The translations under genes were made by a program, and so were the position numbers. Shown here one piece after another: positions 1 through 45,069 of a stretch of 45,069 nt of DNA. The notes beneath the pieces are model-generated. The model saw nothing but the letters and a program-made list of their open reading frames with translations. It was not told the origin of the DNA and ran no database searches. The DNA is taken from the sequence record PZ334583.1; one strand, written 5' to 3'. Source of the DNA: a phage. Each line of letters begins with the position of its first letter. Positions within the stretch are counted from its first letter, which is position 1.

Positions 1-1899
1 ATGGCAAAGGCTAGAGAATCACAGGCAGAGGCATTAAAGCGGTGGGAAAACCTTAAAGAACTACAAGACACTTTTAAATATACAGCGGAAGGTTTGCTTC
101 TCTTTGCAGATACAGTTATCCATAACTTAATTGCAGGCAACCCTCATCTGATTCGTATGCAGGCTGATATCTTGAAGTTCCTATTTTACGGACACAAGTA
201 CCGCCTCATCGAAGCGCCTCGTGGTATCGCTAAGACAACACTATCAGCAATCTATACGGTATTCCGTATTATTCATGAACCGCATAAGCGTATTATGGTT
301 GTGTCCCAAAACGCCAAGCGAGCAGAGGAAATCGCAGGTTGGGTAGTTAAAATCTTCCGTGGCTTAGACTTTCTTGAGTTTATGCTGCCGGATATCTACG
401 CTGGGGACCGTGCATCCGTTAAGGCGTTTGAGATTCATTACACCCTACGTGGTAGTGATAAGTCTCCTTCTGTATCCTGTTACTCAATCGAAGCAGGTAT
501 GCAGGGTGCTCGTGCTGATATTATTCTAGCGGATGACGTAGAGTCGATGCAGAATGCTCGTACGGCAGCGGGCCGTGCCTTGCTTGAGGAGCTGACTAAG
601 GAGTTTGAATCTATCAACCAGTTTGGGGATATCATTTACCTTGGTACACCTCAGAACGTAAACTCTATCTACAACAACCTACCTGCTCGTGGTTACTCTG
701 TTCGTATCTGGACTGCGCGTTACCCTTCAGTAGAGCAAGAGCAATGTTATGGCGACTTCCTTGCACCTATGATTGTTCAAGATATGAAGGACAACCCAGC
801 ACTTCGCTCAGGGTACGGGTTGGATGGTAATAGTGGTGCACCTTGTGCCCCTGAAATGTATGATGATGAAGTCCTGATTGAGAAGGAAATCTCTCAGGGT
901 GCTGCTAAGTTCCAGCTTCAGTTCATGCTTAACACTCGCATGATGGATGCTGACAGATACCCATTACGCCTGAACAATCTAATCTTCACCTCGTTTGGTA
1001 CAGAGGAAGTCCCTGTGATGCCTACGTGGAGTAATGATTCCATAAACATCATTGGTGATGCACCTAAGTATGGTAACAAGCCTACGGATTTCATGTACAG
1101 ACCTGTAGCTCGCCCATATGAATGGGGTGCTGTCTCCCGCAAGATTATGTATATCGACCCTGCGGGTGGTGGTAAGAACGGAGATGAGACGGGTGTAGCC
1201 ATCGTATTCCTGCACGGCACATTCATTTATGTGTATCAGTGCTTTGGTGTACCTGGCGGATACCGAGAGTCGTCCCTGAATCGCATTGTGCAGGCCGCAA
1301 AGCAGGCGGGTGTTAAAGAGGTATTCATTGAGAAGAACTTTGGTCATGGCGCGTTTGAGGCGGTAATTAAGCCGTACTTTGAACGAGAGTGGCCTGTAAC
1401 TCTGGAAGAGGATTACGCCACCGGACAGAAAGAGTTGCGTATCATTGAGACGCTGGAGCCGCTCATGGCAGCACATAGGCTTATCTTCAATGCAGAGATG
1501 GTGAAGTCAGACTTTGAGTCGGTACAGCACTATCCGCTTGAACTACGCATGTCCTACAGTCTTTTCAATCAAATGTCGAACATAACGATTGAGAAGAACA
1601 GCCTCCGGCACGATGACCGCCTAGACGCCCTGTATGGCGCTATACGGCAATTAACTTCTCAGATAGACTATGACGAGGTTACACGGATTAATCGCCTCAG
1701 AGCGCAGGAGATGCGAGATTACATCCATGCTATGAACACACCTCATCTACGCAGGGCAATGCTATATGGGGATTACGGTACTGAGCGAAGAGTGACCAAC
1801 ACTTCCGTAGCGATGCAGCAGCGAGTTTACGGGCAGAACTACCGAAATAAATCGGCAAGCAGAAATACACTTTCTGCAAGGATTTCAAGGACTTATTAA
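1..1899 (+). CDS. terL: Terminase large subunit (T7 gp19-like); its ATG and first 14 nt are also present at 45056..45069
   Basis: 632-aa ORF; N-terminal sequence recognised as T7-group large terminase; position upstream of the tailspike genes as in SP6/K1-5-type genomes; RBS AAGGAG at 45042..45047. Confidence 0.93.
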   Translation: MAKARESQAEALKRWENLKELQDTFKYTAEGLLLFADTVIHNLIAGNPHLIRMQADILKFLFYGHKYRLIEAPRGIAKTTLSAIYTVFRIIHEPHKRIMVVSQNAKRAEEIAGWVVKIFRGLDFLEFMLPDIYAGDRASVKAFEIHYTLRGSDKSPSVSCYSIEAGMQGARADIILADDVESMQNARTAAGRALLEELTKEFESINQFGDIIYLGTPQNVNSIYNNLPARGYSVRIWTARYPSVEQEQCYGDFLAPMIVQDMKDNPALRSGYGLDGNSGAPCAPEMYDDEVLIEKEISQGAAKFQLQFMLNTRMMDADRYPLRLNNLIFTSFGTEEVPVMPTWSNDSINIIGDAPKYGNKPTDFMYRPVARPYEWGAVSRKIMYIDPAGGGKNGDETGVAIVFLHGTFIYVYQCFGVPGGYRESSLNRIVQAAKQAGVKEVFIEKNFGHGAFEAVIKPYFEREWPVTLEEDYATGQKELRIIETLEPLMAAHRLIFNAEMVKSDFESVQHYPLELRMSYSLFNQMSNITIEKNSLRHDDRLDALYGAIRQLTSQIDYDEVTRINRLRAQEMRDYIHAMNTPHLRRAMLYGDYGTERRVTNTSVAMQQRVYGQNYRNKSASRNTLSARISRTY

Positions 1900-1920
1900 T
1901 TACTGGACACTATAGAAGGA
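1898..1920 (+). promoter_or_regulatory. Phage RNAP promoter (SP6-like), putative +1 G at 1915
   Basis: aattactggacactatagaagga; matches the 13-copy consensus ATTTACYGGACACTATAGAAG; overlaps the terL stop. Confidence 0.8.
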
Positions 1921-2055
1921 AGGCCCAGATAATAAGATAAATAATAGGTAATATATAGGTTAACCTAGGTTATATAGGTATGCCTTAATATGGGTGTACT
2001 CCTGTACACCCTCTTCTTTACTACCTTACTATATTTACATAATAGGAGAGAGACA

Positions 2056-2337
2056 ATGGCTAATGATTATAGTAGTCAACCATTAACAGGTAAGTCTAAG
2101 AGAAAGCAGGTACAACCTGTAAGTGAAGAACTAATGCTTCCGGTAATCAAAAAAGAGGAAGCTAGTAAGAAAAGCAATGTCATTAATGATGCCACCAAAT
2201 CAGGTAAACAGAAAGGGGCCATGGTGTGCCTTGAAGTGGAAGGTGGTGTATTGGAGATTGCTATCGCGGTTGATGGCAAAGAAGATTCAGAGTGGAAGTT
2301 AGTAACAGTGGAACCAGCTGTTATTAAACCAGTTTAA
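2056..2337 (+). CDS. Hypothetical late protein, paralog A of a tandem pair
   Basis: ATG 2056 with RBS AGGAG 2044..2048; shares the motif SGKQKGAMVxLE...IAxA...W with the next ORF. Confidence 0.6.
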   Translation: MANDYSSQPLTGKSKRKQVQPVSEELMLPVIKKEEASKKSNVINDATKSGKQKGAMVCLEVEGGVLEIAIAVDGKEDSEWKLVTVEPAVIKPV

Positions 2338-2355: not shown

Positions 2356-2649
2356 ATGGCTAAATATGGTACTACAGGTTCTGTTACTGGTCAGGCTTTT
2401 CGAGTAAAAGCAGTACAAACTATTGCAACGGCAATTCCTATGCCTGTTGTTAAGGAAGTAGACCTTAAGAAGAAAGACCACCCTATCAACATCAAACACT
2501 TATCAGGTAAACAGAAAGGTGCAATGGTTGCTCTTGAGAAAACTGACACAACCATGCATATTGCTGTTGCACGTGGCAGTGAACCCACAGACCCATGGGA
2601 TGTAACTGGTATGGAAGGTGACGCTGTTACTCCGGCAGGTGGAGAATAA
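2356..2649 (+). CDS. Hypothetical late protein, paralog B of a tandem pair
   Basis: ATG 2356 preceded by AAGGAGGAAG; contains LSGKQKGAMVALE, paralogous to 2056..2337. Confidence 0.65.
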   Translation: MAKYGTTGSVTGQAFRVKAVQTIATAIPMPVVKEVDLKKKDHPINIKHLSGKQKGAMVALEKTDTTMHIAVARGSEPTDPWDVTGMEGDAVTPAGGE

Positions 2650-2993
2650 TGCTTAACAAATACTTCAAGCGTAAAGAGTTCGCTTGCCGTTGTGGGTGCG
2701 GTACATCCACTGTTGATGCTGAATTACTACAGGTAGTCACAGATGTGCGTGAGCACTTTGGTTCTCCTGTAGTTATCACTTCGGGGCACCGCTGTGCTAA
2801 GCACAATGCTAATGTAGGAGGAGCTAAGAACTCCATGCATCTTACTGGTAAGGCTGCTGACATTAAAGTTACTGGTATTGGGCCAATGGAGGTTCGTGCA
2901 TACCTGTGCAATAAATACCCCGATAAATATGGTATTGGTGCTTATCCTACTTTCACTCATATTGATGTGAGGGATAATAAAGCACGATGGTAA
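2649..2993 (+). CDS. Endolysin, peptidase M15 family (putative L-alanyl-D-glutamate or D-Ala-D-Ala peptidase)
   Basis: 114 aa; motifs FKRKEFACRCGCG, SGHRC..HN, MHLTGKAADI typical of zinc M15 cell-wall peptidases; TAATG overlap with the upstream gene. Confidence 0.8.
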   Translation: MLNKYFKRKEFACRCGCGTSTVDAELLQVVTDVREHFGSPVVITSGHRCAKHNANVGGAKNSMHLTGKAADIKVTGIGPMEVRAYLCNKYPDKYGIGAYPTFTHIDVRDNKARW

Positions 2994-3101
2994 GATGCAT
3001 TGAATGGTGTGAGCGCATGGTTGCTAAGGCTTCAGAGGAAGGTAATTATGAAGATTGGCAGAACTACTCAACTTTATTAGCACAATGGAAAGGGAGGTGC
3101 A

Positions 3102-3251
3102 ATGAAAAAGCTGTTCAAATCTAAGAAGGTTGTAGGTGCACTAGTTGCATTGGCAATTGCTCTTGTTTCTGTAGGTCTTGGTGTAGACCTTGGCTCTGGC
3201 ACGGAATCCTCTGTGACAGATGTGGTCTGCCAAGTGATCACCTGTGAATAA
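3102..3251 (+). CDS. Small membrane protein (49 aa) in the lysis cluster
   Basis: ATG 3102 with RBS GGGAGG; N-terminal KK followed by hydrophobic helix VVGALVALAIALVSVGLG; not in the ORF track (<60 aa). Confidence 0.4.
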   Translation: MKKLFKSKKVVGALVALAIALVSVGLGVDLGSGTESSVTDVVCQVITCE

Positions 3252-3465
3252 GTTTCTAGAAGTTCTGGCAGGTCTTATTGGCCTGCTTGTCTCTGCTAAG
3301 AAGAAACAAGAAGAGAAGGAGGCACAAAGTGAAGCGAATCATGTTAGTGACAACCCTTCTGATTGGTTCGCTGACCACTTCCGGGTGTCAGCAGGCGTTA
3401 CCAGAGAAAGCAATGGTGAAACCTCTGAGGCCGACGCTGACGGAAGTTTACGAGGTAGACGATAA
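3244..3465 (+). CDS. Putative i-spanin-like protein (N-terminal TM helix then charged region)
   Basis: GTG start; FLEVLAGLIGLLVSA then KKKQEEKEAQ; overlaps the lipoprotein ORF in another frame (Rz/Rz1-like arrangement); short for an Rz, weak RBS. Confidence 0.3.
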   Translation: MNKFLEVLAGLIGLLVSAKKKQEEKEAQSEANHVSDNPSDWFADHFRVSAGVTRESNGETSEADADGSLRGRR

Positions 3466-3538
3466 GGTCTGCTTTAGTAAGCCTGACGCTACAAAATTAG
3501 GTTTGTATATTCTTTCGCTGGAACGCGGATATAATTAA
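3329..3538 (+). CDS. Putative o-spanin (Rz1-like outer-membrane lipoprotein)
   Basis: RBS AAGGAGG 3314..3320 then GTG 3329 (or ATG 3341); lipobox LTTSGC; Pro-containing mature region with a second Cys; overlaps 3244..3465 in a different frame. Confidence 0.45.
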   Translation: MKRIMLVTTLLIGSLTTSGCQQALPEKAMVKPLRPTLTEVYEVDDKVCFSKPDATKLGLYILSLERGYN

Positions 3539-3567: not shown

Positions 3568-3590
3568 ATTTACTGGACACTATAGAAGAG
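3568..3590 (+). promoter_or_regulatory. Phage RNAP promoter, putative +1 G at 3585
   Basis: gatttactggacactatagaagag, perfect consensus, upstream of tailspike 1. Confidence 0.85.
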
Positions 3591-3669
3591 ATAAGATAGC
3601 GCCGTTCTTTTGAGCGGCCTATTACTAGCCAATCTTCATAGGGAGGGTTGGAAAGTAATAGGAGATAGT

Positions 3670-5568
3670 ATGGCTAAATTAACCAAACCTAATACTGAAG
3701 GAATCTTGCATAAAGGACAATCTTTGTATGAGTACCTTGATGCGAGAGTTTTAACATCAAAGCCGTTTGGTGCTGCAGGTGACGCCACTACTGATGATAC
3801 GGAGGTTATAGCTGCTTCATTAAACTCTCAGAAAGCTGTCACAGTCTCAGATGGTGTATTCTCTAGCTCTGGTATTAATAGTAATTACTGTAACTTAGAC
3901 GGTAGGGGTAGTGGCGTGCTAAGTCACCGTTCCAGTACAGGTAACTACTTAGTATTTAACAATCTACGTGCAGGTCGCTTAAGTAATATTACGGTAGAAA
4001 GTAATAAGGCGACTGATACAACTCAGGGACAGCAGGTATCTCTTGCTGGTGGAAGTGATGTTACTATAAGTGACGTTAACTTCTCAAACGTTAAAGGTAC
4101 TGGTTTCAGTTTAATAGCATGCCCTAATGGTGAGCAACCTAACGGGCTTATGATTAAAGGCATTCGAGGTAGCTACTCCGGCTATGCTACTAATAAGGCC
4201 GCTGGATGCGTACTTGCTGACTCCTCAGTTAACTCTCTCATAGATAACGTCATTGCTAAGAGCTATCCTCAGTTTGGAGCTGTAGAGCTGAAAGGTACAG
4301 CCAGTTATAACATAGTAAGTAATGTTATAGGGGCAGATTGCCAACATGTAACTTACAACGGCACTGAAGAGGTAATAGCTCCTTCTAATAACCTTATCAA
4401 GGGTGTGATGGCTAATAATCCTAAGTATGCAGCGGTTGTTGCAGGCAAAGGAAGTACGAACTTAATCTCAGACGTGCTCGTAGATTACTCAACTTCTGAT
4501 GCTAGGCAGGCTCATGGTGTTACCGTAGAAGGGTCTGATAACGTCATAAATAATGTTCTTATGTCAGGATGTGATGGTACTAACTCTTTAGGACAAAGGC
4601 AGACTGCTACAATTGCACGCTTTATAGGTACAGCTAATAACAACTATGCGTCTGTATTTCCTAGCTACAGTGCTACAGGTGTTATTACTTTCGAATCCGG
4701 CTCTACCCGTAACTTCGTAGAGGTAAAGCACCCTGGCAGGAGAAATGACCTTCTCAGTTCTGCTAGTACTATTGACGGTGAAGCTACTATTGACGGCACT
4801 AATAATAGTAACGTAGTGCACGCACCCGCCTTAGGGCAGTACATAGGTAGTATGTCAGGTAGGTTCGAATGGCGGATTAAGTCCATGTCACTACCTTCAG
4901 GCGTTCTTACTTCGGCTGATAAGTACAGAATGCTTGGGGATGGTGCTGTGTCATTCGCTGTAGGTGGGGGCACTTCTTCTCAAGTTCGCCTATTTACTTC
5001 TGATGGTACTTCTCGGACAGTGTCCCTCACCAACGGTAACGTGCGTCTTTCTACCAGTAGCACAGGATATTTGCAGTTAGGTTCTGATGCAATGACCCCA
5101 GATAGTACTGGTACATACGCATTAGGTTCCGCCAGTAGAGCATGGTCTGGCGGTTTTACTCAATCAGCATTCACTGTTGTCTCAGATGCTAGGGATAAAA
5201 CAGAGCCCCTTATTATCTCAGATGCTTTACTGGATGCTTGGTCTGAAGTTGACTTTGTGCAGTTTCAGTACTTGGACCGAATTGAGGAGAAGGGTGCAGA
5301 CTCAGCTAGATGGCACTTCGGTATCATCGCTCAGCGAGCTAAGGAGGCTTTCGAACGTCACGGTATAGATGCACACCGCTACGGCTTCTTGTGCTTCGAC
5401 AGTTGGGATGATGTATACGAGGAAGATGCCAATGGCTCTCGTAAACTGATTACACCAGCAGGTTCCCGCTACGGTATTCGTTACGAGGAAGTACTGATAT
5501 TAGAGGCTGCATTGATGCGACGGACTATTAAGCGTATGCAGGAAGCACTAGCTGCCATTCCTAAGTAA
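3670..5568 (+). CDS. Tailspike 1: beta-helix capsule depolymerase-like with C-terminal intramolecular chaperone (peptidase S74) domain
   Basis: ATG 3670 (MAKLTKPNTEG...) with RBS GGAG; Ser/Thr/Gly/Asn-rich repetitive body typical of a beta-helix; C-terminus VSDARDKTEP...WHFGIIAQ...GIRYEEV matches the auto-cleaving chaperone domain of endosialidase and K5-lyase tailspikes. Confidence 0.9.
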   Translation: MAKLTKPNTEGILHKGQSLYEYLDARVLTSKPFGAAGDATTDDTEVIAASLNSQKAVTVSDGVFSSSGINSNYCNLDGRGSGVLSHRSSTGNYLVFNNLRAGRLSNITVESNKATDTTQGQQVSLAGGSDVTISDVNFSNVKGTGFSLIACPNGEQPNGLMIKGIRGSYSGYATNKAAGCVLADSSVNSLIDNVIAKSYPQFGAVELKGTASYNIVSNVIGADCQHVTYNGTEEVIAPSNNLIKGVMANNPKYAAVVAGKGSTNLISDVLVDYSTSDARQAHGVTVEGSDNVINNVLMSGCDGTNSLGQRQTATIARFIGTANNNYASVFPSYSATGVITFESGSTRNFVEVKHPGRRNDLLSSASTIDGEATIDGTNNSNVVHAPALGQYIGSMSGRFEWRIKSMSLPSGVLTSADKYRMLGDGAVSFAVGGGTSSQVRLFTSDGTSRTVSLTNGNVRLSTSSTGYLQLGSDAMTPDSTGTYALGSASRAWSGGFTQSAFTVVSDARDKTEPLIISDALLDAWSEVDFVQFQYLDRIEEKGADSARWHFGIIAQRAKEAFERHGIDAHRYGFLCFDSWDDVYEEDANGSRKLITPAGSRYGIRYEEVLILEAALMRRTIKRMQEALAAIPK

Positions 5569-5653: not shown

Positions 5654-7837
5654 ATGCTACAAAGATTAGGGGCAATGTTTGTTCGGTATAAAAATAAAGT
5701 AGGTAATGCTATCGAGCGTACACTACAAAGTAAATTACAGGATGTAGTCAGTGTAAAGGACTATGGCGCCATTGGTGATGGGGTATATCGTTCACTTGGT
5801 GATAAATTTACCACGTTAAGTATCGCACAAGTAGTATACCCACATGCTGAAAGTTTAACTCAATCGCAAGATTGGGCGGCTATTCAGGCTGCACTTAATT
5901 CTCACTCAAAAGTGTACATTCCAGCAGGTAGATACATGCTATCTGATACCATTGAGATGAGCGGAGGTCAAACTCTGCAAGGTGACGGTATTGACTCTTG
6001 GGTTGCAGGTTATGCTGGGTTTGTACAAGATAGGCAAGGCACTCACCTTATAATGGTGGGAGATGGCAATAAGAAGTATACATTAGATCATGTATCTAAC
6101 TTCGATGTAGAAGGTGGTGTCATAGACAACCCAGCTAAGAGTGATTCTTATACTGCCACTGCACCTTCCCCTAATTACTCATTTACTAACTTCACTAATG
6201 CTAACGCCTCTGGTGCACAACGTGCTACATTGAAACCTTTCAGCGTAGCATTACGTTGCACAGGTCACGGTGGTGTTTACCTTCGTGACTTCCGTATTGT
6301 GCCTAATCACAGAGGGCAAGAAGGTTATAAGGATGAGTTGTCAACTGCATTAGGGGACGCATGGGATGTAGGTATTTGGCTGGAGAATACATCTGACTCA
6401 GTGTTATCTTCTGTGCAAGCAGTAGGTTACTGGCGCATTGCAGGTGTTATGAAGACTTGTATACCACAAGATGGTTCCTTTGTTGGTGGAGAGCGTGATA
6501 GGATATACAATTGCACATTACAAGGTTATCGTGGCTTCTTAGCACGTTCGCATGATACTTACCAAGTAGAAGAAGTATCAGGTAACACTGTATCGATTAA
6601 GTGGTCTGCATCTCACACTTTCGAACCTTCTGGTAAAGTTCGTATCCAAGGGAAAGACCGTAGTTATACTAGCCTGTCTGTATCTGGTGACAAATTAGTT
6701 TTCACTGGTATTGACGATGTATCAGATATTAATACCAAGAGCTATGTGAGAGTTTCAGGGTCTTCATTCGGAATGTCTGCTACTCAACTAAATAACACAT
6801 ACATCGCTGCATTAAACCATCATGCTCGCTTGCCAGCGACCTCTAATCTTTTAGATAATAGGTTTTCTACTTCGGCAGCTTGCTATGAAGTTGCAGGTGA
6901 ACCAATTCGTGCCATAAAATTATCTAACTGTACTGTCATTACTTGGGATGACATCTTAGGTATGACTGGTGGTATTAGGGACTTCCAGACGACAGATACT
7001 TACTTCGAGTCTCAGCCTTTCCGTACTTCTGTGCAAGGCTTGGCAAGCACCACACAACCTGCTGGTTCTCGCATGATTGCACTTCGTGGACGTCAAGGTT
7101 CTAAAACTACAGGCTATCAAGCTATCGGTTGTACTTATGGGCCGGGTGTAGACCTAAGCCCTCGTTATGAAAGCGATGTATCTCGTTACACAACTTCCGG
7201 TGGTATGTTCAATCCAAGAGAAGATTTGAACACAACTAAGCAGTTACCAATGAGGCAAGACGCTACTGAGCTATCTTCTACTTCTGGCTTATTCCTTACA
7301 CATGCTGTAGGTGGGAAGGCCTATGTTGGCGCTACCTCTGGTGATGCAACGCTTCAATCTAGAACTGGATCATTGAATATCCAATCAGGACTTCGTGTAC
7401 GCATTGGTGGCACTGATGGTAGTGGTTGGTATATTGCTGACAGTGCTAAGTTGACACCTACTGCTGACAATGCAAGGGCTTGTGGACAACCTAATGGACG
7501 ATGGACTGTTGTCTATGCTGTTAATGGTACAATCCAGACTTCTGATGGTAGATTCAAGGAAATCCTTGAGATTGAACAGGCAGAACTTGATGCTGGTCTT
7601 GAATTATCAGCAAACCTAATTAAGTATCGGTGGAATGGGGAAGATAAAATTCACTTTGGTTGCATAGCACAAGAAGTGATGTTAATCCTGGAGAAACATG
7701 GCCTAAACCCATTACAATATGATATGGTTCAGTATGATGAGGAGGCAGACATCTTTGGGGTAAACTATGCTGAACTCAACAGCTTCTGTATTGCAGCATT
7801 ATCGAGGAAGTTAAATGCCATTAATCAGATCAGTTAA
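5654..7837 (+). CDS. Tailspike 2: pectate-lyase-like beta-helix with C-terminal intramolecular chaperone (peptidase S74) domain
   Basis: 727 aa; RBS AAAGGAGG; VKDYGAIGDG motif (pectate_lyase_3-type beta-helix N-cap); C-terminus TSDGRFKE...IHFGCIAQ...GVNYAEL is the S74 chaperone. Confidence 0.9.
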   Translation: MLQRLGAMFVRYKNKVGNAIERTLQSKLQDVVSVKDYGAIGDGVYRSLGDKFTTLSIAQVVYPHAESLTQSQDWAAIQAALNSHSKVYIPAGRYMLSDTIEMSGGQTLQGDGIDSWVAGYAGFVQDRQGTHLIMVGDGNKKYTLDHVSNFDVEGGVIDNPAKSDSYTATAPSPNYSFTNFTNANASGAQRATLKPFSVALRCTGHGGVYLRDFRIVPNHRGQEGYKDELSTALGDAWDVGIWLENTSDSVLSSVQAVGYWRIAGVMKTCIPQDGSFVGGERDRIYNCTLQGYRGFLARSHDTYQVEEVSGNTVSIKWSASHTFEPSGKVRIQGKDRSYTSLSVSGDKLVFTGIDDVSDINTKSYVRVSGSSFGMSATQLNNTYIAALNHHARLPATSNLLDNRFSTSAACYEVAGEPIRAIKLSNCTVITWDDILGMTGGIRDFQTTDTYFESQPFRTSVQGLASTTQPAGSRMIALRGRQGSKTTGYQAIGCTYGPGVDLSPRYESDVSRYTTSGGMFNPREDLNTTKQLPMRQDATELSSTSGLFLTHAVGGKAYVGATSGDATLQSRTGSLNIQSGLRVRIGGTDGSGWYIADSAKLTPTADNARACGQPNGRWTVVYAVNGTIQTSDGRFKEILEIEQAELDAGLELSANLIKYRWNGEDKIHFGCIAQEVMLILEKHGLNPLQYDMVQYDEEADIFGVNYAELNSFCIAALSRKLNAINQIS

Positions 7838-31704: not shown

Positions 31705-32913
31705 ATGTCTACACCGAATACTCTGACTAACGTTGCTGTATCTGCATCCGGTGAGGTTGACAGCCTTCTCATTGAGAAGTTTAATGGTAAGGTCAATGAG
31801 CAGTACCTGAAAGGTGAGAACATTCTGTCCTACTTTGATGTACAGACTGTTACTGGCACTAACACAGTGAGCAACAAATATTTGGGCGAAACTGAGTTGC
31901 AGGTGCTAGCACCGGGTCAGTCTCCTAATGCCACCCCTACTCAGGCGGATAAAAACCAGTTGGTAATTGATACCACTGTCATTGCTCGTAACACTGTGGC
32001 TCACATCCACGATGTACAAGGTGACATCGATAGCCTGAAACCAAAACTGGCTATGAACCAAGCCAAGCAACTGAAACGTCTGGAAGACCAGATGGCAATT
32101 CAGCAGATGCTGTTAGGCGGTATTGCTAACACCAAGGCCAAACGTAACAAGCCGCGTGTTAAAGGGCATGGCTTCTCTATCAACGTTAACGTAACTGAGA
32201 GTGAAGCACTGGCTAACCCTCAGTATGTTATGGCTGCGGTAGAGTATGCTCTGGAGCAACAGCTTGAGCAGGAAGTGGACATCTCTGATGTAGCTATCAT
32301 GATGCCGTGGAAGTTCTTCAATGCTCTGCGTGATGCAGACCGAATTGTAGATAAGACTTACACTATCAGCCAGTCTGGTGCAACCATTAATGGCTTCGTT
32401 CTCTCTTCTTATAACTGCCCTGTGATCCCGTCTAACCGATTCCCTACCTTCGCTCAGACTCAGGCTCACCACCTGTTGTCTAATGAAGATAACGGCTATC
32501 GTTATGACCCTATCGCAGAGATGAATGGTGCAGTTGCTGTTCTGTTCACTGCCGACGCACTGCTGGTGGGTCGTACCATTGAAGTGACTGGTGACATCTT
32601 CTATGAGAAGAAAGAGAAGACTTATTACATTGACACCTTCATGGCTGAGGGTGCAATCCCTGACCGTTGGGAGGCAGTGTCTGTAGTTACCACTAAACGT
32701 AATGCATCTACTGGTGCTGCTGAAGGTTCTGGTGATGATCACGCAACCGTACTGGCTCGTGCACAGCGTAAGGCTGTATATGTCAAAACCGAAGGTGCTG
32801 CGGCTGCATTCTCTGCTGCCCCAGCAGGTATCCAAGCGGAAGACCTTGTAGCGGCGGTACGTGCTGTAATGGCAAATGACATCAAGCCGACTGCAATGAA
32901 ACCTGCTGAGTAA
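31705..32913 (+). CDS. Major capsid protein (gp10-like)
   Basis: 402 aa; RBS AAGGAG; strong codon bias; own promoter upstream and terminator downstream. Confidence 0.95.
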   Translation: MSTPNTLTNVAVSASGEVDSLLIEKFNGKVNEQYLKGENILSYFDVQTVTGTNTVSNKYLGETELQVLAPGQSPNATPTQADKNQLVIDTTVIARNTVAHIHDVQGDIDSLKPKLAMNQAKQLKRLEDQMAIQQMLLGGIANTKAKRNKPRVKGHGFSINVNVTESEALANPQYVMAAVEYALEQQLEQEVDISDVAIMMPWKFFNALRDADRIVDKTYTISQSGATINGFVLSSYNCPVIPSNRFPTFAQTQAHHLLSNEDNGYRYDPIAEMNGAVAVLFTADALLVGRTIEVTGDIFYEKKEKTYYIDTFMAEGAIPDRWEAVSVVTTKRNASTGAAEGSGDDHATVLARAQRKAVYVKTEGAAAAFSAAPAGIQAEDLVAAVRAVMANDIKPTAMKPAE

Positions 32914-32920
32914 TACCTAT

Positions 32921-32957
32921 GCCCTATCTACCTTGCGTAGGTAGGGTTATTTTTTGT
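32921..32957 (+). terminator. Terminator after the capsid gene (T-phi analogue)
   Basis: gccctatctacc-ttgcg-taggtagggtt imperfect hairpin followed by attttttg. Confidence 0.65.
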
Positions 32958-32968
32958 TAGGAGGATTC

Positions 32969-33706
32969 ATGCCTGTAATTAGACAAACCAGTAAAGTAGG
33001 ACACATGATGGAAGATGTGGCCTTCCAGATTATTGATAGTAAACTTGAAGCGGTCAACCTGTGTATGCGAGCTATTGGTCGTGAGGGTGTGGATTCTCTC
33101 GACTCAGGGGACTTGGACGCAGAAGATGCAAGCAAGATGATCGACATCGTATCCCAGCGGTTCCAGTACAACAAAGGAGGTGGCTGGTGGTTCAATCGTG
33201 AACCAAACTGGCAGATTGCACCTGATACCAATGGTGAAGTCAATCTGCCTAACAACTGCCTAGCAGTATTGCAGTGTTATGCTTTGGGTGAGAAGAAAGT
33301 ACCCATGACTATGCGTGCAGGTAAGCTTTACTCCACATGGAGTCACACCTTTGATATGCGCAAGCATGTTAATGCTAATGGCATGATTCGTCTTACCTTA
33401 CTCACCTTACTACCTTACGAGCATCTACCTACAAGTGTAATGCAGGCTATTGCCTATCAAGCTGCTGTAGAGTTTATTGTGTCTAAGGATGCAGATCAGA
33501 CTAAGCTAGCCACTGCGCAGCAGATAGCCACTCAGCTTCTTATGGATGTACAATCTGAGCAAATGTCACAGAAGCGATTAAACATGCTGGTACATAACCC
33601 CACTCAGCGTCAGTTTGGTATCATGGCTGGTGGCTCTCAGAATGTACCTGCTTACTCTCATTCACCTTATGAAAGTTGGGCGCTCCGTCCGTGGGAGGAT
33701 CGTTAA
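32969..33706 (+). CDS. Tail tubular protein A (gp11-like)
   Basis: ATG 32969 with RBS AGGAGG; position and size. Confidence 0.85.
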   Translation: MPVIRQTSKVGHMMEDVAFQIIDSKLEAVNLCMRAIGREGVDSLDSGDLDAEDASKMIDIVSQRFQYNKGGGWWFNREPNWQIAPDTNGEVNLPNNCLAVLQCYALGEKKVPMTMRAGKLYSTWSHTFDMRKHVNANGMIRLTLLTLLPYEHLPTSVMQAIAYQAAVEFIVSKDADQTKLATAQQIATQLLMDVQSEQMSQKRLNMLVHNPTQRQFGIMAGGSQNVPAYSHSPYESWALRPWEDR

Positions 33707-36108
33707 TGGAAGTACAAGGTTCATTAGGTAGACAAATCCAAGGGATTAGCCAGCAGCCGCCAGCGGTACGCTTGGATGGTCAGTGCACAGCTATGGTTAA
33801 TATGATACCTGATGTAGTGAATGGTACCCAATCACGCATGGGTACAACTCATATTGCGAAGATACTTGATGCGGGGACTGATGACATGGCTACTCATCAT
33901 TATCGCAGAGGTGATGGTGATGAAGAGTATTTCTTCACGTTGAAGAAAGGACAAGTTCCTGAGATATTTGATAAGTATGGGCGCAAATGTAATGTGACTT
34001 CACAAGATGCACCTATGACCTACCTCTCTGAGGTTGTTAATCCAAGGGAAGATGTGCAATTCATGACGATAGCTGATGTTACTTTCATGCTTAATCGTAG
34101 GAAAGTAGTTAAAGCTAGTAGCAGGAAGTCACCTAAAGTTGGAAACAAAGCCATTGTGTTTTGTGCGTATGGTCAATATGGTACATCTTATTCCATTGTA
34201 ATTAATGGGGTCAACGCTGCTAGTTTTAAAACACCGGATGGTGGAAGTGCAGACCATGTTGAACAAATTCGAACTGAACGTATCACTTCTGAATTGTACT
34301 CTAAGTTGCAGCAATGGAGCGGTGTGAGTGACTATGAAATACAAAGAGACGGTACTAGTATATTTATCGAGAGACGGGATGGTGCTAGCTTTACAATAAC
34401 AACCACCGATGGTGCAAAAGGTAAGGACTTAGTGGCTATCAAGAATAAAGTTAGCTCTACTGACCTACTCCCTTCTCGTGCACCTGCTGGTTATAAAGTA
34501 CAAGTGTGGCCTACTGGCAGCAAACCTGAGTCTCGTTACTGGCTGCAAGCTGAGCCTAAAGAGGGAAACCTTGTGTCTTGGAAAGAAACAATAGCTGCTG
34601 ATGTATTACTTGGGTTTGATAAAGGCACAATGCCTTACATTATTGAACGTACAGATATCATCAACGGCATAGCTCAATTCAAGATAAGACAAGGTGATTG
34701 GGAAGATCGTAAAGTAGGGGATGACTTGACTAACCCTATGCCCTCTTTTATTGATGAGGAAGTACCCCAGACAATAGGTGGAATGTTCATGGTGCAGAAC
34801 CGCCTATGTTTTACAGCAGGTGAAGCGGTTATTGCTTCTCGTACATCATACTTCTTCGATTTCTTTCGTTATACGGTTATCTCTGCATTGGCAACTGACC
34901 CATTTGATATTTTCTCAGATGCTAGTGAAGTCTACCAGCTAAAACATGCAGTGACCTTAGATGGCGCTACCGTGTTGTTCTCTGATAAGTCACAATTCAT
35001 ACTGCCAGGAGATAAGCCTTTAGAGAAGTCAAATGCATTGCTTAAGCCTGTTACAACATTTGAAGTGAACAATAAAGTGAAGCCAGTAGTAACTGGTGAA
35101 TCGGTAATGTTTGCCACTAATGATGGTTCTTACTCTGGTGTACGAGAGTTCTATACAGACTCTTATAGTGACACTAAGAAGGCACAAGCAATCACAAGTC
35201 ATGTGAATAAACTCATCGAAGGTAACATTACCAACATGGCAGCAAGCACCAATGTCAACAGGTTACTTGTCACTACCGATAAGTATCGTAACATAATCTA
35301 CTGCTACGATTGGTTATGGCAAGGAACAGACCGTGTACAATCAGCATGGCATGTATGGAAGTGGCCTATAGGTACAAAGGTGCGAGGTATGTTTTATTCT
35401 GGTGAATTACTTTACCTGCTCCTTGAGCGAGGGGATGGCGTATATCTGGAGAGGATGGACATGGGTGATGCACTAACCTACGGTTTGAATGACCGCATCA
35501 GAATGGATAGGCAAGCAGAGTTAGTCTTCAAGTATTTTAAAGCAGAAGATGAATGGGCGTCTGAACCTCTTCCTTGGACTCCTACTAACCCAGAACTTTT
35601 AGATTGCATCTTAATCGAGGGTTGGGATTCATATATTGGTGGCTCTTTCTTATTCAAGTACAACCCTAGTGACAATACTTTGTCTACAACCTTTGATATG
35701 TATGATGACAGTCATGTAAAAGCGAAGGTTATTGTTGGTCAGATTTACCCTCAAGAGTTTGAACCTACACCTGTGGTTATCAGAGACAATCAAGACCGTG
35801 TATCCTATATTGATGTACCAGTTGTAGGATTGGTTCACCTTAATCTTGACATGTACCCCGATTTCTCCGTAGAAGTTAAGAATGTGAAGAGTGGTAAAGT
35901 ACGTAGAGTATTAGCGTCAAACCGTATAGGTGGTGCTCTCAATAATACAGTAGGCTATGTTGAACCGAGAGAAGGTGTCTTCAGATTTCCACTGAGAGCT
36001 AAGAGCACGGATGTTGTTTATCGTATTATTGTAGAGTCACCCCACACATTCCAGCTTCGTGATATTGAGTGGGAAGGGAGCTACAATCCAACCAAAAGGA
36101 GGGTCTAA
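33706..36108 (+). CDS. Tail tubular protein B (gp12-like)
   Basis: 800 aa from ATG 33706 (TAATG overlap, RBS GGGAGGA); N-terminus ...IQGISQQPPAVRLDGQ matches the conserved gp12 GISQQP motif. Confidence 0.9.
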   Translation: MEVQGSLGRQIQGISQQPPAVRLDGQCTAMVNMIPDVVNGTQSRMGTTHIAKILDAGTDDMATHHYRRGDGDEEYFFTLKKGQVPEIFDKYGRKCNVTSQDAPMTYLSEVVNPREDVQFMTIADVTFMLNRRKVVKASSRKSPKVGNKAIVFCAYGQYGTSYSIVINGVNAASFKTPDGGSADHVEQIRTERITSELYSKLQQWSGVSDYEIQRDGTSIFIERRDGASFTITTTDGAKGKDLVAIKNKVSSTDLLPSRAPAGYKVQVWPTGSKPESRYWLQAEPKEGNLVSWKETIAADVLLGFDKGTMPYIIERTDIINGIAQFKIRQGDWEDRKVGDDLTNPMPSFIDEEVPQTIGGMFMVQNRLCFTAGEAVIASRTSYFFDFFRYTVISALATDPFDIFSDASEVYQLKHAVTLDGATVLFSDKSQFILPGDKPLEKSNALLKPVTTFEVNNKVKPVVTGESVMFATNDGSYSGVREFYTDSYSDTKKAQAITSHVNKLIEGNITNMAASTNVNRLLVTTDKYRNIIYCYDWLWQGTDRVQSAWHVWKWPIGTKVRGMFYSGELLYLLLERGDGVYLERMDMGDALTYGLNDRIRMDRQAELVFKYFKAEDEWASEPLPWTPTNPELLDCILIEGWDSYIGGSFLFKYNPSDNTLSTTFDMYDDSHVKAKVIVGQIYPQEFEPTPVVIRDNQDRVSYIDVPVVGLVHLNLDMYPDFSVEVKNVKSGKVRRVLASNRIGGALNNTVGYVEPREGVFRFPLRAKSTDVVYRIIVESPHTFQLRDIEWEGSYNPTKRRV

Positions 36109-39802: not shown

Positions 39803-39819
39803 TACCTAACTCAAGGCTT

Positions 39820-44146: not shown

Positions 44147-44341
44147 ATGATTAACTCCGAACTGGTAGATAGTGGTGTGAAGCTTGCGCCACCTGCACTC
44201 GTATCAGGTGGGTACTTCCTCGGTATCAGTTGGGATAATTGGGTGTTAATAGCAACATTCATTTATACCGTGTTGCAAATTGGGGACTGGTTTTATAATA
44301 AGTTCAAGATTTGGAGGGAGAAGCGTGAGCGTACACAATAA
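44147..44341 (+). CDS. Holin, class II (T7 gp17.5-like)
   Basis: 64 aa; RBS AAGGAGG; FIYTVLQIGDWFYNKF corresponds to IAYTVVQIGAKVVDKM of T7 gp17.5; basic C-terminus. Confidence 0.8.
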   Translation: MINSELVDSGVKLAPPALVSGGYFLGISWDNWVLIATFIYTVLQIGDWFYNKFKIWREKRERTQ

Positions 44342-44624
44342 ACATGCAGCTACAGAGGATGAGGTTGGCATTCTGCATGGTGCTATTACCAAAATCTTCA
44401 ATAAGAAAGCACAGGCAATACTGGACACTATAGAAGAAGACCCTGATGCAGCATTACATTTAGTGCCTGGTAAGGACATTGGTGCAATGTGTAAGTGGGT
44501 TCTTGATAACGGCATTACCGCCACACCTGCTGCACAGCAGGAAGAGTCCAAGTTATCTAAGCGCCTCAAGGCTATCCGAGAGGCATCCAGTGGCAAGATT
44601 ATTCAGTTTACAAAAGAGGAGTGA
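44325..44624 (+). CDS. Putative terminase small subunit (gp18-like)
   Basis: about 99 aa from GTG 44325 (RBS GGAGGG 44313..44318); immediately upstream of terL as in T7; contains a promoter-like sequence. Confidence 0.5.
   Translation: MSVHNKHAATEDEVGILHGAITKIFNKKAQAILDTIEEDPDAALHLVPGKDIGAMCKWVLDNGITATPAAQQEESKLSKRLKAIREASSGKIIQFTKEE
44416..44438 (+). promoter_or_regulatory. Near-consensus phage promoter embedded in the small-terminase coding sequence
   Basis: caatactggacactatagaagaa; would drive the HNH gene and terL. Confidence 0.6.
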
Positions 44625-44625: not shown

Positions 44626-45069
44626 ATGCATAGATGGTGTGAATCTCAAGGTTATACCATCTTACCTTCTGGTGTCATCCTTTCAAAGGGTGGCACCCCT
44701 CTCAAACCATTCAAGGCGGGTAGGGGTTATTTAGCAGTTAAAATTAAAAATAAAGAAGGTAAATGGCGTAATGTCTATGTTCATCAATTAGTGGCTTATA
44801 AGTATTTACCTAAAACTAATAATGAAGTAAACCACAAAGACGGCGATAAGCACAACAATGATGTTAGCAACTTGGAGTGGGTAACAAGAAGCGAGAATAA
44901 CTATTTAAAATGCAATGGAAATGATAGGAGTGCCTTAAATAGCTATTTAGCAAGATTAAAAGATTGCTTCTTGCAAGGTAAGGGTGTAGCAGAAACCGCT
45001 AGACTTACTGGTAAAAGTGAACCAAGAGTTTCTTCTCTCTTTAAGGAGTGGCGAAATGGCAAAGGCTAG
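44626..45069 (+). CDS. HNH homing-type endonuclease, paralog 2, inserted between the terminase subunit genes
   Basis: 147 aa from ATG 44626 (RBS AGAGGAG); HNH motif EVNHKDGDKHNNDVSNLEW; paralogous to 16601..17089; stop TAG at 45067..45069 overlaps the terL start. Confidence 0.8.
   Translation: MHRWCESQGYTILPSGVILSKGGTPLKPFKAGRGYLAVKIKNKEGKWRNVYVHQLVAYKYLPKTNNEVNHKDGDKHNNDVSNLEWVTRSENNYLKCNGNDRSALNSYLARLKDCFLQGKGVAETARLTGKSEPRVSSLFKEWRNGKG

What the first reader, a model, noticed from the sequence alone, without database searches (positions are those of the whole stretch)
2649..3538. Lysis functions split: endolysin plus putative overlapping spanins at the right end, holin 41 kb away upstream of terS
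Seen in sequence: an M15 peptidase endolysin (2649..2993), then a small TM protein, then a TM protein whose gene overlaps a lipoprotein gene (lipobox LTTSGC) in another frame, as in Rz/Rz1 spanin pairs. The gp17.5-like holin sits at 44147..44341. T7 uses an amidase endolysin in the class II region and places Rz/Rz1 between the terminase genes, so this is a different wiring of the same functions. The i-spanin call is weak: the product is only about 73 aa.
Basis: partly seen in the sequence, partly recalled or inferred. Interest (0 to 1): 0.4.

Follow-up and report, generated by a model that had tools for sequence, protein, structure and literature searches.

The report
Standard K1-5-type phage lysis genes
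This is the ordinary lysis gene set of a K1-5/SP6-like coliphage, and the "41 kb split" arises only because the genome was written starting at the terminase gene; the one point worth noting is that a small, mostly unannotated gene overlapping the outer-membrane lipoprotein gene is real and is probably that lipoprotein's true partner.

Summary
The window is a Vectrevirus (K1-5-like) genome, 93-97% identical to known phages, written so that it starts at the terL ATG.

The "41 kb" gap comes from the rotation. On the real linear genome the holin lies about 3.4 kb upstream of the endolysin, directly before terS, exactly as in T7. This layout is the documented one for SP6-like phages, and the spanins are already listed in Kongari et al. 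2018.

The added value concerns the 73-aa ORF. It is unannotated in K1-5 and labelled inconsistently elsewhere, but it is a conserved gene under purifying selection and is translationally coupled to the gene before it. In 28 of 28 loci examined, including 10 unrelated metagenomic lysis cassettes, it is overlapped in the +1 frame by the same lipoprotein family, while the gene upstream of it changes type. Its membrane anchor is marginal and its topology is untested.

The parts
1900..1920 (+). Phage-RNAP (SP6/K1-5-type) promoter directly after terL. It heads the transcription unit gp41-gp42-endolysin-orf45-gp44-ORF73-lipoprotein.
   Evidence: TTACTGGACACTATAGAAGGA, 2 mismatches to the window consensus. 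There are 9 sites in the window against 0.02 expected by chance.
2649..2993 (+). Endolysin: a cytoplasmic Zn peptidase of family M15_3 (K1-5 gp43 homologue) with no signal or SAR (signal-arrest-release) sequence.
   Evidence: PF08291, 4.2e-33. (phrog_894 endolysin, 1e-45). (weak match to 1LBU across the SxHxxGxAAD zinc motif). (KD19 maximum 0.71, 101/115 positions identical to K1-5 gp43).
2987..3124 (+). Conserved 45-aa soluble ORF of unknown function. Its start overlaps the endolysin stop (ATGGTAA).
   Evidence: phrog_1312, 4.3e-18. (present in all SP6-like and Gajwadongvirus loci).
3102..3251 (+). gp44-like 49-aa membrane protein. The basic N-terminus predicts an N-in orientation. It has one firm transmembrane domain (TMD) and a roughly 21-aa tail ending in a conserved C-x4-C. 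It is variously annotated 'holin' or 'i-spanin'; I read it as a holin-family relative of unknown role.
   Evidence: phrog_4712, 3e-27. (19-residue uncharged TMD in all 16 homologues). (C43 and C48 invariant). (hhalign probability 77%, E 2e-5, to the N-terminal half of 2-TMD holin-like proteins)..
3244..3465 (+). 73-aa ORF ('ORF73', phrog_9219), the candidate i-spanin equivalent. Its GTG start lies inside the gp44 stop (TGTGAATAA). It has an N-terminal hydrophobic/amphipathic helix, then K-x-EQ-x2-AQ-x-EA, then NP-x2-WF-x2-HF, then a disordered acidic tail.
   Evidence: 18/18 phage loci. (dN/dS 0.23-0.25, the only open frame). (family of 44 representatives, almost all 49-95 aa; the two longer ones look chimeric). 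(AlphaFold2 helices 3-29 and 38-45). (100% identical to an unannotated K1-5 ORF).
3329..3538 (+). o-spanin-type outer-membrane lipoprotein (K1-5 gp45 homologue). It has a 19-aa signal, lipobox TTSG|C, and a 50-aa mature part with a Pro-rich N-half and a conserved C-terminal motif, KP-x-LT..V.EVD..VCF..PDA..LGLYIL.LERGY.
   Evidence: phrog_8971 'Rz-like spanin', 2.3e-38. (the only credible lipoprotein signal in the window). (identical UniRef entry 'O-spanin'). (K1-5 entry in Kongari's table). (AlphaFold2 secondary structure).
3570..3590 (+). Next phage promoter, for the tailspike gene. It marks the 3' boundary of the lysis block.
   Evidence: perfect match to the consensus.
44147..44341 (+). 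T7 gp17.5-type holin (K1-5 gp38 homologue). It sits immediately upstream of terS and overlaps it.
   Evidence: PF10746, 1.5e-27. (phmmer against T7 gp17.5, E 3.8e-7). (same position in LL11 and K1-5). (same position in T7).
44325..44624 (+). terS (context). Together with terL at 1..1899 it shows that the window end joins the window start.
   Evidence: PF11123. (collinear with K1-5).
44626..45069 (+). HNH homing-endonuclease gene inserted between terS and terL (context). It accounts for 444 of the 3376 nt between holin and endolysin.
   Evidence: PF13392, 2.6e-11. (absent from K1-5). (present in 18 of 67 related records).

Best explanation
The region is the normal late lysis module of a K1-5/SP6-like (Molineuxvirinae) phage.

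**Layout (shown).** On the real linear genome the order is tail adaptor, T7-type holin, terS, an HNH insertion, terL, then a phage promoter, gp41, gp42, M15 endolysin, orf45, gp44, ORF73 overlapping the lipoprotein gene, then the tailspike promoter. The five genes from 2649 to 3538 overlap each other by 7, 23, 8 and 137 nt.

**Mechanism (inferred).**
1. The gp17.5-type holin permeabilises the inner membrane.
2. This releases the signal-less cytoplasmic M15 Zn-peptidase, which cleaves peptidoglycan cross-links.
3. The outer membrane is then breached by a small two-component spanin. Its outer-membrane half is the 50-aa lipoprotein. Its inner half is most likely the 73-aa product of the overlapping gene, not the 49-aa gp44.

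ORF73 is made by termination-reinitiation at the gp44 stop codon. gp44 itself looks like a single-TMD relative of small holins; it may regulate holin timing or help anchor ORF73.

**Status of each step.** Gene content, order, rotation, conservation and dual coding are shown. The ORF73-lipoprotein partnership, its topology and the role of gp44 are inferred.
For: **Identity and layout**
- DNA identity to K1-5, LL11, VEc3 and KMB14 is 92-97%. Annotated gene order is the same in LL11, K1-5, SP6 and K1E.
- Rotation is shown.
- There is no T7 or lambda-type spanin elsewhere in the window.
- Phage promoters at 1900 and 3570 bracket the block.

**ORF73 is a real gene**
- It is present, with a start codon overlapping the upstream stop, in 18/18 phage loci spanning Vectrevirus, Zindervirus, Acadevirus and Gajwadongvirus, plus Klebsiella, Aeromonas, Erwinia and Edwardsiella phages.
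- By tblastn it is found in 156 phage records, against 157 for the lipoprotein.
- In the part that does not overlap the lipoprotein gene, dN/dS is 0.23-0.25. Synonymous change is depressed in both frames across the overlap. Only this frame is open.

**Partnership with the lipoprotein**
- In 10/10 distant metagenomic cassettes (L020-L033) an ORF73-like gene is overlapped in the +1 frame by a phrog_8971-type lipoprotein. This holds whether the endolysin is M15, lysozyme, Amidase_3 or DUF5675, and in a myovirus-like and an integrase-bearing context.
- The upstream gene changes type across these loci: a 2-TMD holin-like protein (phrog_34682/297) or other small membrane proteins. The gp44 type with its Cys tail does not travel with the lipoprotein.
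- In L024 a firm TMD is fused to an ORF73-like domain directly after the endolysin, giving a conventional i-spanin layout.
- Kongari et al. chose the ORF73 homologue as the overlapped i-spanin in UAB_Phi78. For K1-5 they flagged gp44 as 'Too small?'.
- None of the 25 distinct lipoproteins read has Asp at +2, as expected for outer-membrane sorting.
Against: - ORF73's N-terminal hydrophobic stretch is marginal for a TMD in this phage. It has 12 uncharged residues, KD19 1.25 and Wimley-White octanol energy +3.2 kcal/mol. T7 gp18.5 has a 19-residue run and -8.6 kcal/mol. Across the family the helix often carries E/D and R/K.
- Three lysines follow the helix, which by the positive-inside rule would put the C-terminal part in the cytoplasm.
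- ORF73 has no coiled coil and only about 50 residues beyond the helix. With the 50-aa lipoprotein this is short for spanning the periplasm.
- gp44 has the firmer TMD and a conserved C-x4-C tail predicted to lie in the periplasm, features expected of spanin components. Expert annotators of LL11 and SP6 call it the i-spanin.
- Part of ORF73's conserved K-E-(A/Q) stretch coincides with the lipoprotein's Shine-Dalgarno AAGGAG, and the WF-x2-HF motif with its lipobox codons. Some conservation could therefore be imposed by the other frame.
- There are no expression or genetic data for any of the three small genes.
Confidence: 0.6

Rival explanations
1. The curated 'separated' model is right. gp44 (49 aa) is the i-spanin and gp45 is the o-spanin. 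ORF73 is an accessory protein of unrelated or unknown function that happens to overlap the lipoprotein gene.
For: - gp44 has a firm TMD, predicted N-in/C-out from its basic N-terminus, and an invariant C-x4-C tail predicted to be periplasmic.
- The lipoprotein also has a conserved extra Cys, so intermolecular disulfides as in other spanins are possible.
- Kongari's table, the LL11 announcement and the updated SP6 record all use this assignment.
Against: - Only about 21 periplasmic residues. [quoted passage not shown]
- In 10/10 distant cassettes carrying the same lipoprotein family, no gp44-type protein with a Cys tail is present. ORF73-like genes always are.
- gp44 resembles the N-terminal half of 2-TMD holin-like proteins.
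- L025 and L028 lipoproteins lack the conserved Cys.
Confidence: 0.13
2. A three-part spanin. gp44 supplies the stable inner-membrane anchor, ORF73 is a bridging subunit with only a weak membrane helix of its own, and gp45 is the outer-membrane half. gp44 and ORF73 together equal one conventional i-spanin.
For: - gp44 and ORF73 are translationally coupled in all 18 phage loci.
- The natural fusion P0080 joins a gp44-like TMD plus 'DLGD' loop to an ORF73-like domain and replaces both genes in L024.
- ORF73's own helix is too weakly hydrophobic for a firm anchor.
Against: - In most distant cassettes the upstream protein is a 2-TMD holin-like protein or another type with no exposed tail, so a specific gp44-ORF73 contact cannot be general.
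- There is one fusion example only, from a short 1.8-kb metagenomic contig.
- It is unclear how a stand-alone ORF73 would reach the periplasm.
Confidence: 0.17
3. ORF73 faces the cytoplasm (N-out/C-in, or peripheral through an amphipathic helix) and acts on holin timing like an antiholin or holin cofactor. The lipoprotein then acts without an inner-membrane partner.
For: - Basic residues (KKK, RRR or KKRK) directly follow the short helix throughout the family.
- The helix often contains charged residues. ORF73 has no Cys and carries an acidic disordered tail like holin C-termini.
- It always sits next to a holin-like gene.
Against: - In known phage biology, a gene overlapping an o-spanin gene in the +1 frame is an i-spanin gene.
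- In P0080 the domain follows a TMD predicted to be N-in/C-out, and its next helix (11 residues, with E and Q) is too short to re-cross the membrane. This places the domain in the periplasm.
- Lambda Rz also has more basic residues after its TMD than before it, so the charge rule is weak here.
Confidence: 0.07
4. The lipoprotein is not a lysis protein at all. It could be, for example, a superinfection-exclusion or receptor-masking lipoprotein like T5 Llp or Cor, and these phages lack spanins.
For: No experimental evidence exists for any member. The mature protein is very small, and the curators doubted the call.
Against: It is always the last gene of a holin/endolysin cassette in unrelated phage backgrounds with four or five different endolysin types. 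It lies in a late transcription unit. Exclusion genes are typically expressed early and are not linked to endolysins.
Confidence: 0.03

Closest known systems
Lysis genes of coliphage K1-5 (gp38 holin; gp43 endolysin; gp44; gp45) and of SP6, K1E and LL11
   Same: Same genes in the same order at 85-100% protein identity. ORF73 is 74/74 identical, gp45 69/70, gp44 49/50 and holin 64/65 (counts include the stop position). The holin-terS and endolysin-small-genes-tailspike positions are the same.
   Different: Only an HNH gene inserted between terS and terL, 14 substitutions in the endolysin, and the arbitrary start point of the record.
Kongari et al. 2018 spanin catalogue entries: K1-5/K1E/SP6 'separated' pair (gp44 + gp45) and UAB_Phi78 'overlapped' pair
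   Same: The window's lipoprotein belongs to their o-spanin family (K1-5, K1E, SP6, UAB_phi78). Their UAB_Phi78 i-spanin (69 aa, overlapping the o-spanin by 110 nt in frame +1) has the length, position and frame of the window's ORF73.
   Different: For K1-5, K1E and SP6 they picked gp44 instead, so one homologous locus is curated in two incompatible ways. My comparative data favour the UAB_Phi78-style reading for all of them.
T7 gp18.5/gp18.7 and lambda Rz/Rz1 (two-component spanins)
   Same: A lipoprotein gene in the +1 frame of a gene for a small protein with an N-terminal hydrophobic helix, expressed late, in phages of the same family (T7).
   Different: - No sequence similarity (phmmer E > 0.2).
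- Overlapped rather than embedded.
- Located after the endolysin instead of between terS and terL.
- The candidate i-spanin is 73 aa against 143-153 aa, has no coiled coil, and has a marginal TMD.
T7 gp17.5 holin and gp3.5 amidase
   Same: The holin is a homologue (PF10746; E 3.8e-7 against T7 gp17.5) and sits in the same place, directly before terS.
   Different: The endolysin is an M15 Zn-peptidase in the late region, not the early-region amidase that doubles as an RNAP inhibitor in T7 (the T7 part is from general knowledge).
Unimolecular spanin T1 gp11 and the phiKT gp28 'disruptin' (alternative outer-membrane disruptors)
   Same: Small lysis-cassette proteins that deal with the outer membrane.
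   Different: The lipoprotein has no C-terminal TMD, so it is not a u-spanin. ORF73 (net -3) and orf45 (net -1) are not cationic peptides, so they are not disruptin-like.

Membership tests
i-spanin (applied to ORF73, 3244..3465) | N-terminal transmembrane domain with N-in/C-out topology | tested here: inconclusive
   The window copy has 12 uncharged residues, KD19 1.25 (usual threshold about 1.6) and Wimley-White octanol energy +3.2 kcal/mol. The control T7 gp18.5 has a 19-residue run and -8.6 kcal/mol. The family ranges from clearly insufficient (ECBP5, P0068) to adequate (VL73, P0076). Topology cannot be determined from sequence.
i-spanin (applied to ORF73) | Gene adjacent to, overlapping or embedding the o-spanin gene within the lysis cassette | tested here: met
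   137-nt overlap with the lipoprotein in the +1 frame. The same arrangement is seen in 18/18 phage loci and 10/10 distant cassettes.
i-spanin (applied to ORF73) | Mostly alpha-helical, coiled-coil periplasmic domain long enough to reach the o-spanin | tested here: not met
   AlphaFold2 gives helix 3-29 (which includes the anchor), a short helix 38-45, and low confidence for the rest. About 50 residues lie beyond the anchor. All family members are 49-95 aa and none is a long relative.
i-spanin (applied to ORF73) | Physical interaction with the o-spanin; loss gives Mg2+-stabilised spherical cells | not testable with these tools
   Needs genetics or biochemistry.
i-spanin (applied to gp44, 3102..3251, as curated for K1-5, LL11 and SP6) | TMD with N-in/C-out topology plus a periplasmic domain that can reach the o-spanin, co-inherited with the o-spanin family | tested here: not met
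   The TMD is firm but only about 21 residues follow it. A gp44-type protein is absent from 10/10 distant cassettes that carry the same o-spanin family. gp44 shows profile similarity to the N-terminal half of holin-like proteins.
o-spanin (lipoprotein 3329..3538) | Signal peptidase II signal with lipobox Cys, and no Asp at +2 (outer-membrane sorting) | tested here: met
   MKRIMLVTTLLIGSLTTSG|CQQ fits the PROSITE PS51257-type rule and is the only credible case in the window. The +2 residue is Q, G, A, V, L or S in all 25 distinct homologues read, never D.
o-spanin (lipoprotein 3329..3538) | Short, Pro-rich, largely unstructured mature domain without a TMD; membership of a catalogued o-spanin family | tested here: met
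   The mature part is 50 aa. AlphaFold2 shows residues 21-39 disordered, a hairpin at 40-49 and a helix at 52-66. It matches phrog_8971 at 2.3e-38, the K1-5 family in Kongari's tables and a UniRef 'O-spanin' entry.
T7 / lambda Rz-Rz1 sequence families | Detectable homology to T7 gp18.5/18.7 or lambda Rz | tested here: not met
   phmmer --max against all 376 window ORFs gave a best E of 0.25-1.8. Pfam finds no match for any of the small proteins at E <= 1.
T7-type holin (Pfam PF10746) | Profile match above the curated cut-off; position directly upstream of terS | tested here: met
   95.5 bits against a cut-off of 25.4. The gene overlaps the terS start, as in K1-5 and T7.
Peptidase M15_3 endolysin | Profile match above the cut-off; zinc-binding H-x6-D and distal H; no export signal | tested here: met
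   114.2 bits against 23.2. The motifs SMHLTGKAAD and THID can be read in the sequence and align to the 1LBU zinc motif. KD19 maximum is 0.71. Cleavage specificity was not tested.

The most novel reading that the evidence does not exclude
The ORF73-like / phrog_8971 lipoprotein pair is a distinct, mobile 'mini-spanin' class found in podo-, myo- and temperate-phage lysis cassettes. Its inner component has neither a canonical transmembrane anchor nor a coiled coil, with about 100 periplasmic residues in total. It would therefore have to work differently from Rz/Rz1-type membrane fusion. One possibility is that it borrows the neighbouring holin-like protein as its anchor, making a three-part system. 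Another is that ORF73 is released to activate a membrane-active lipoprotein helix (LGLYILxLERGY).
Probability: 0.25. Interest if true: 0.55.

Novelty: already known. Interest (0 to 1): 0.25.

Why it matters
As a genome feature it does not matter much. It is the textbook lysis layout of SP6/K1-5-like phages in a genome that was simply rotated.

The practical value is for annotation. One conserved gene (phrog_9219) is missing or mislabelled in most of about 150 published genomes of therapeutic-type coliphages and Klebsiella, Salmonella and Proteus phages, and the same locus is curated in two contradictory ways in the reference spanin catalogue.

If the overlapped pair is the real spanin, it is among the smallest known. 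It would be a compact test case for how much protein is needed to breach the outer membrane. This is easily testable in the existing lambda Rz/Rz1 complementation system.

Tried and rejected
- **Wider DNA recruitment.** The search for related loci with the broad ORF73 alignment failed because no stretch was conserved enough. tblastn of two distant family members (P0061, P0085) against cultured phages found nothing. Distant contexts therefore had to come from metagenomic contigs.
- **Kongari supplement.** A search for the WF-x2-HF motif found nothing because the stored table is cut before UAB_Phi78. The equivalence of their UAB_Phi78 i-spanin with ORF73 rests on matching length (69 aa), overlap and frame, not on a sequence read from the paper.
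- **Literature.** A search for spanins in Vectrevirus, Zindervirus or Molineuxvirinae returned no papers.
- **Small proteins.** Pfam gave nothing for the four small proteins.
- **Endolysin structure.** The sequence search of solved structures gave only a weak 1LBU match, so no fold search was attempted. The two AlphaFold2 models were too low in confidence (pLDDT 62 and 54) to justify one.
- **Lipobox scan.** My first regular expression required L/V/I at -3 and missed even gp45, which has T at -3. I replaced it with the PROSITE-style rule.
- **Readings considered and rejected.** u-spanin: there is no C-terminal TMD. Disruptin-like cationic peptide: net charges are -3 and -1. SAR endolysin: there is no N-terminal hydrophobic segment. 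Programmed frameshift fusing gp44 to ORF73: no conserved slippery sequence at the junction, which varies between TGTGAATAA, TAATG and ATGA.
- **Charge rule.** The positive-inside rule was considered as a topology test and set aside, because lambda Rz itself violates a simple charge count.
Full report
**What the window is**

The 1.8 kb around the finding matches 122 phage records. The best are Escherichia phages KMB14 (96.8%), 6948, VEc3, K1-5 (92.9%) and LL11, all Vectrevirus (Autographiviridae, Molineuxvirinae). The annotated K1-5 and LL11 records give this gene order: tail-fibre adaptor, holin, terS, terL, gp41, gp42, endolysin (gp43), gp44, gp45, tailspikes, right end.

The window begins at the terL ATG. 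A local blastn of K1-5 32095-44385 against the doubled window gives three anchors:
- K1-5 terS ends at window 44625.
- K1-5 terL corresponds to window 1..1899.
- The K1-5 right genome end falls at window 8424.

Linear GenBank records (VEc3, EC120) carry terS | HNH | terL contiguously across what is the window's end-to-start junction. The window is therefore a rotated copy of a linear genome whose physical ends lie near 8424.

**Checking the observation**

| Feature | Coordinates | Key evidence |
|---|---|---|
| Endolysin | 2649..2993 | Peptidase_M15_3 (4.2e-33) and phrog_894 endolysin (1e-45). Carries SMHLTGKAAD and THID zinc motifs, which align weakly to the 1LBU carboxypeptidase. No hydrophobic N-terminus (KD19 maximum 0.71). 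|
| gp44-like membrane protein | 3102..3251, 49 aa | Five basic residues in its first nine, a 19-residue uncharged segment, and a tail ending C-x4-C. |
| ORF73 | 3244..3465, 73 aa | Starts at a GTG that lies inside the gp44 stop (TGTGAATAA). |
| Lipoprotein | 3329..3538 | Starts at GTG 6 nt after AAGGAGG. Has the signal MKRIMLVTTLLIGSLTTSG\|C. Lies in the +1 frame of ORF73 with a 137-nt overlap. |
| Holin | 44147..44341 | Pfam T7-family holin (1.5e-27). Matches T7 gp17.5 directly (E 3.8e-7). |

The physical claim in the title does not hold. The holin stop and endolysin start are 3376 nt apart on the real genome. Of that, 444 nt is an HNH homing-endonuclease gene inserted between terS and terL.

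**Comparison with T7**

I read the T7 record for this. Its order is gene 17, 17.5 (holin), 18 (terS), 18.5/18.7 (spanins), 19 (terL). The holin-before-terS position is therefore shared with T7 and is not rewired. Two things differ. The spanin pair is not between the terminase genes, and the endolysin is a late-region M15 peptidase rather than T7's early amidase (the latter from general knowledge).

This arrangement is the recognised one for SP6-like phages:
- PMC4640515 states that holin, endolysin, Rz and Rz1 occupy conserved, separated positions in the group.
- The LL11 announcement lists a class-II holin, an endolysin and a separated spanin pair.
- Kongari et al. 2018 list K1-5, K1E and SP6 in their i- and o-spanin families.

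No T7- or lambda-type spanin homologue occurs in any of the 376 window ORFs, and no other credible lipoprotein signal exists.

**The 73-aa ORF is a real gene**

It is unannotated in K1-5, K1E and LL11. In the SP6 RefSeq record it is annotated as gp48. In the updated SP6 GenBank record it is labelled 'o-spanin' although it has no lipobox.

I extracted the region from 18 phage loci: Vectrevirus; Zindervirus (SP6, UAB_Phi78, PST_H2); Klebsiella Molineuxvirinae; Proteus Acadevirus; Gajwadongvirus (ECBP5, PP99, MR4, which have a different, transglycosylase endolysin); and Edwardsiella, Aeromonas and Erwinia phages. All 18 have the trio of a gp44-like gene, an ORF73-like gene and the lipoprotein gene. 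In all 18 the ORF73-like start (GTG or ATG) overlaps or abuts the upstream stop (TGTGAATAA, TAATG, ATGA).

Further evidence:
- tblastn finds ORF73 in 156 phage records and the lipoprotein in 157.
- The 25 ORF73 codons that lie between gp44 and the lipoprotein start have dN/dS 0.23-0.25, similar to gp44 (0.12-0.22).
- In the overlap, synonymous divergence drops in both frames (pS about 0.3 against 0.46-0.66), as expected for dual coding.
- Read in the other two frames, the same DNA has 6-24 stop codons and pN/pS 0.86-3.1.
- The window's copy is identical to the unannotated K1-5 ORF.

**What family ORF73 belongs to**

Pfam has nothing. PHROGs places it in phrog_9219, unknown function. A profile search of 1.84 billion representative proteins found only 44 relatives. 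Almost all are 49-95 aa; the two longer ones look chimeric. There is no long, canonical i-spanin behind this family.

The shared architecture has four parts:
- an N-terminal helix of 12-19 hydrophobic residues, frequently interrupted by E/D and R/K;
- K-x-EQ-x2-AQ-x-EA-D;
- (D/N)P-x2-WF-x2-HF;
- a polar, acidic tail with no cysteines.

AlphaFold2 on the close-homologue alignment gives helix 3-29, helix 38-45 and low confidence elsewhere (mean pLDDT 61.7).

**Partnership with the lipoprotein**

I recovered genomic context for ten distant family members (loci L020-L033). In every one the ORF73-like gene is overlapped in the +1 frame by a lipoprotein gene. Lipoboxes include LTGC, IQAC, VMAC, MVGC, LTAC, ISGC and MAGC, and the C-terminal motif KP-x-L...GG-x-C...DA..LG-x-YI..LE is conserved. 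The two lipoproteins I scanned match phrog_8971 at 2e-18 and 9e-15.

The surrounding cassettes are otherwise unrelated. Endolysins are M15-like, Phage_lysozyme, Amidase_3 or DUF5675. Backgrounds include a baseplate-wedge (myovirus-type) contig and an integrase-bearing contig.

The gene immediately upstream is always a small membrane protein, but of changing type. In three loci it is a 2-TMD protein matching 'holin' PHROGs (phrog_34682, phrog_297) and, weakly, the gp44 family phrog_4712 (E 5e-4 to 2e-3). A profile-profile comparison aligns gp44 with the N-terminal half of these proteins (probability 77%, E 2e-5; transmembrane-segment composition inflates such scores). No distant locus has a gp44-type protein with the C-x4-C tail.

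In L024 a firm TMD (19 uncharged residues) followed by a 'DLGD' loop is fused to an ORF73-like domain and sits directly between an M15 endolysin and the overlapped lipoprotein. That is the conventional i-spanin/o-spanin picture.

**Interpretation**

The unit that travels together is ORF73-like plus lipoprotein. The upstream holin-like gene is exchangeable.

The curators themselves annotated the K1-5 entry 'Too small?' and 'Too short'. For the close relative UAB_Phi78 they chose a 69-aa i-spanin overlapping the o-spanin in frame +1, which has the length, position and frame of ORF73. The same locus is therefore curated in two ways.

I put about 0.6 on ORF73 being the lipoprotein's functional partner. 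This is an inference from conserved architecture, not a demonstration.

**Evidence against, and what remains open**

- In this phage the ORF73 helix is poor transmembrane material. It has 12 uncharged residues, KD19 1.25 and Wimley-White octanol energy +3.2 kcal/mol. T7 gp18.5 has 19 residues and -8.6 kcal/mol, and gp44 has KD19 2.64.
- Basic residues follow the helix, there is no coiled coil, and ORF73 plus the mature lipoprotein give only about 100 periplasmic residues.
- gp44 keeps an invariant Cys pair in a tail predicted to be periplasmic, which is hard to explain if it is only a holin remnant.
- Part of ORF73's conservation coincides with the lipoprotein's Shine-Dalgarno and lipobox codons.

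Three rivals therefore stay alive: gp44 is the i-spanin (0.13); a three-part complex in which gp44 anchors ORF73 (0.17); or a cytoplasm-facing ORF73 that acts on holin timing (0.07). The AlphaFold2 model of the lipoprotein is low-confidence. It shows a disordered Pro-rich N-half, a hairpin at 40-49 and a helix at 52-66. That is compatible with an o-spanin but not diagnostic.

**Transcription context**

Nine SP6/K1-5-type promoter sites occur in the window, against 0.02 expected by chance. One lies at 1900, directly after terL, and one at 3570, directly after the lipoprotein gene. The segment from gp41 to the lipoprotein therefore looks like one late transcription unit, and the holin belongs to the preceding one.

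**Verdict**

The feature is real but ordinary: the known lysis complement of a K1-5-like phage. The striking 'split' is produced by the record's start point. Novelty is 'already known'.

The useful residue is an annotation correction and a cheap experiment. phrog_9219 is a genuine, widely missed gene that is co-inherited with the phrog_8971 o-spanin family and is probably its partner. Interest is 0.25.

Noticed in passing
window 44626..45069: An HNH (PF13392) homing-endonuclease gene is inserted exactly between the terS stop and the terL start. It is absent from K1-5 and LL11 and present in 18 of 67 related records. A phage-promoter-like site (44418..44438, 2 mismatches) lies inside terS just upstream of it.
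   Followed up: partly
window 2987..3124: A conserved 45-aa soluble ORF (phrog_1312, unknown function) whose ATG overlaps the endolysin stop (ATGGTAA). It has a C-x2-W-C...W motif, is present in all SP6-like and Gajwadongvirus loci examined, and is unannotated in K1-5.
   Followed up: partly
window 2056..2337 and 2356..2649: A tandem paralogous pair of about 93-97-aa proteins (K1-5 gp41/gp42). They carry the PHROG/RefSeq label 'acetyl-CoA acetyltransferase' (phrog_2725). For proteins this small with no Pfam support, the label looks like a propagated misnomer.
   Followed up: no
L019 (SP6 AY288927.2) 4423..4620; L005 (SP6 NC_004831) 1253..1471; L002 (K1-5) 6705..6854: Public annotation of this locus is contradictory. 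The ORF73-frame gene of SP6 is labelled 'o-spanin' although it has no lipobox, while the true lipoprotein frame is unannotated. gp44 is 'holin' in RefSeq K1-5/K1E and 'i-spanin' in LL11 and SP6.
   Followed up: yes
L024 329..616 (P0080, TARA metagenome contig): A natural fusion of a gp44-like TMD plus 'DLGD' loop with an ORF73-like domain. It replaces both genes between an M15 endolysin and the overlapped lipoprotein. It could be a Rosetta-stone link or an assembly or frameshift artefact.
   Followed up: partly
window 1992..2011: A strong 8-bp GC-rich stem-loop followed by a T-rich tract lies about 70 nt after the phage promoter at 1900 and overlaps the start of the longest gp41 ORF. It may be a terL-unit terminator or an RNA-processing site.
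   Followed up: no
window 8424/8425: The K1-5 right genome end maps here, so the physical ends (and the collapsed terminal repeat) of this genome should lie at about this position. The window is a rotated assembly.
   Followed up: partly
P0049, P0050 (representative library): Two proteins of 132 and 103 aa carry the exact SP6 ORF73 C-terminus behind unrelated N-terminal sequence. They are probably chimeric or misassembled contigs rather than longer family members.
   Followed up: no
window 3610..5568: The tailspike ORF listed from TTG 3610 most likely starts at ATG 3671 (GGAGATAGT ATG). The region is about 96% identical to the K1-5 gp46 (K5 lyase) region.
   Followed up: no
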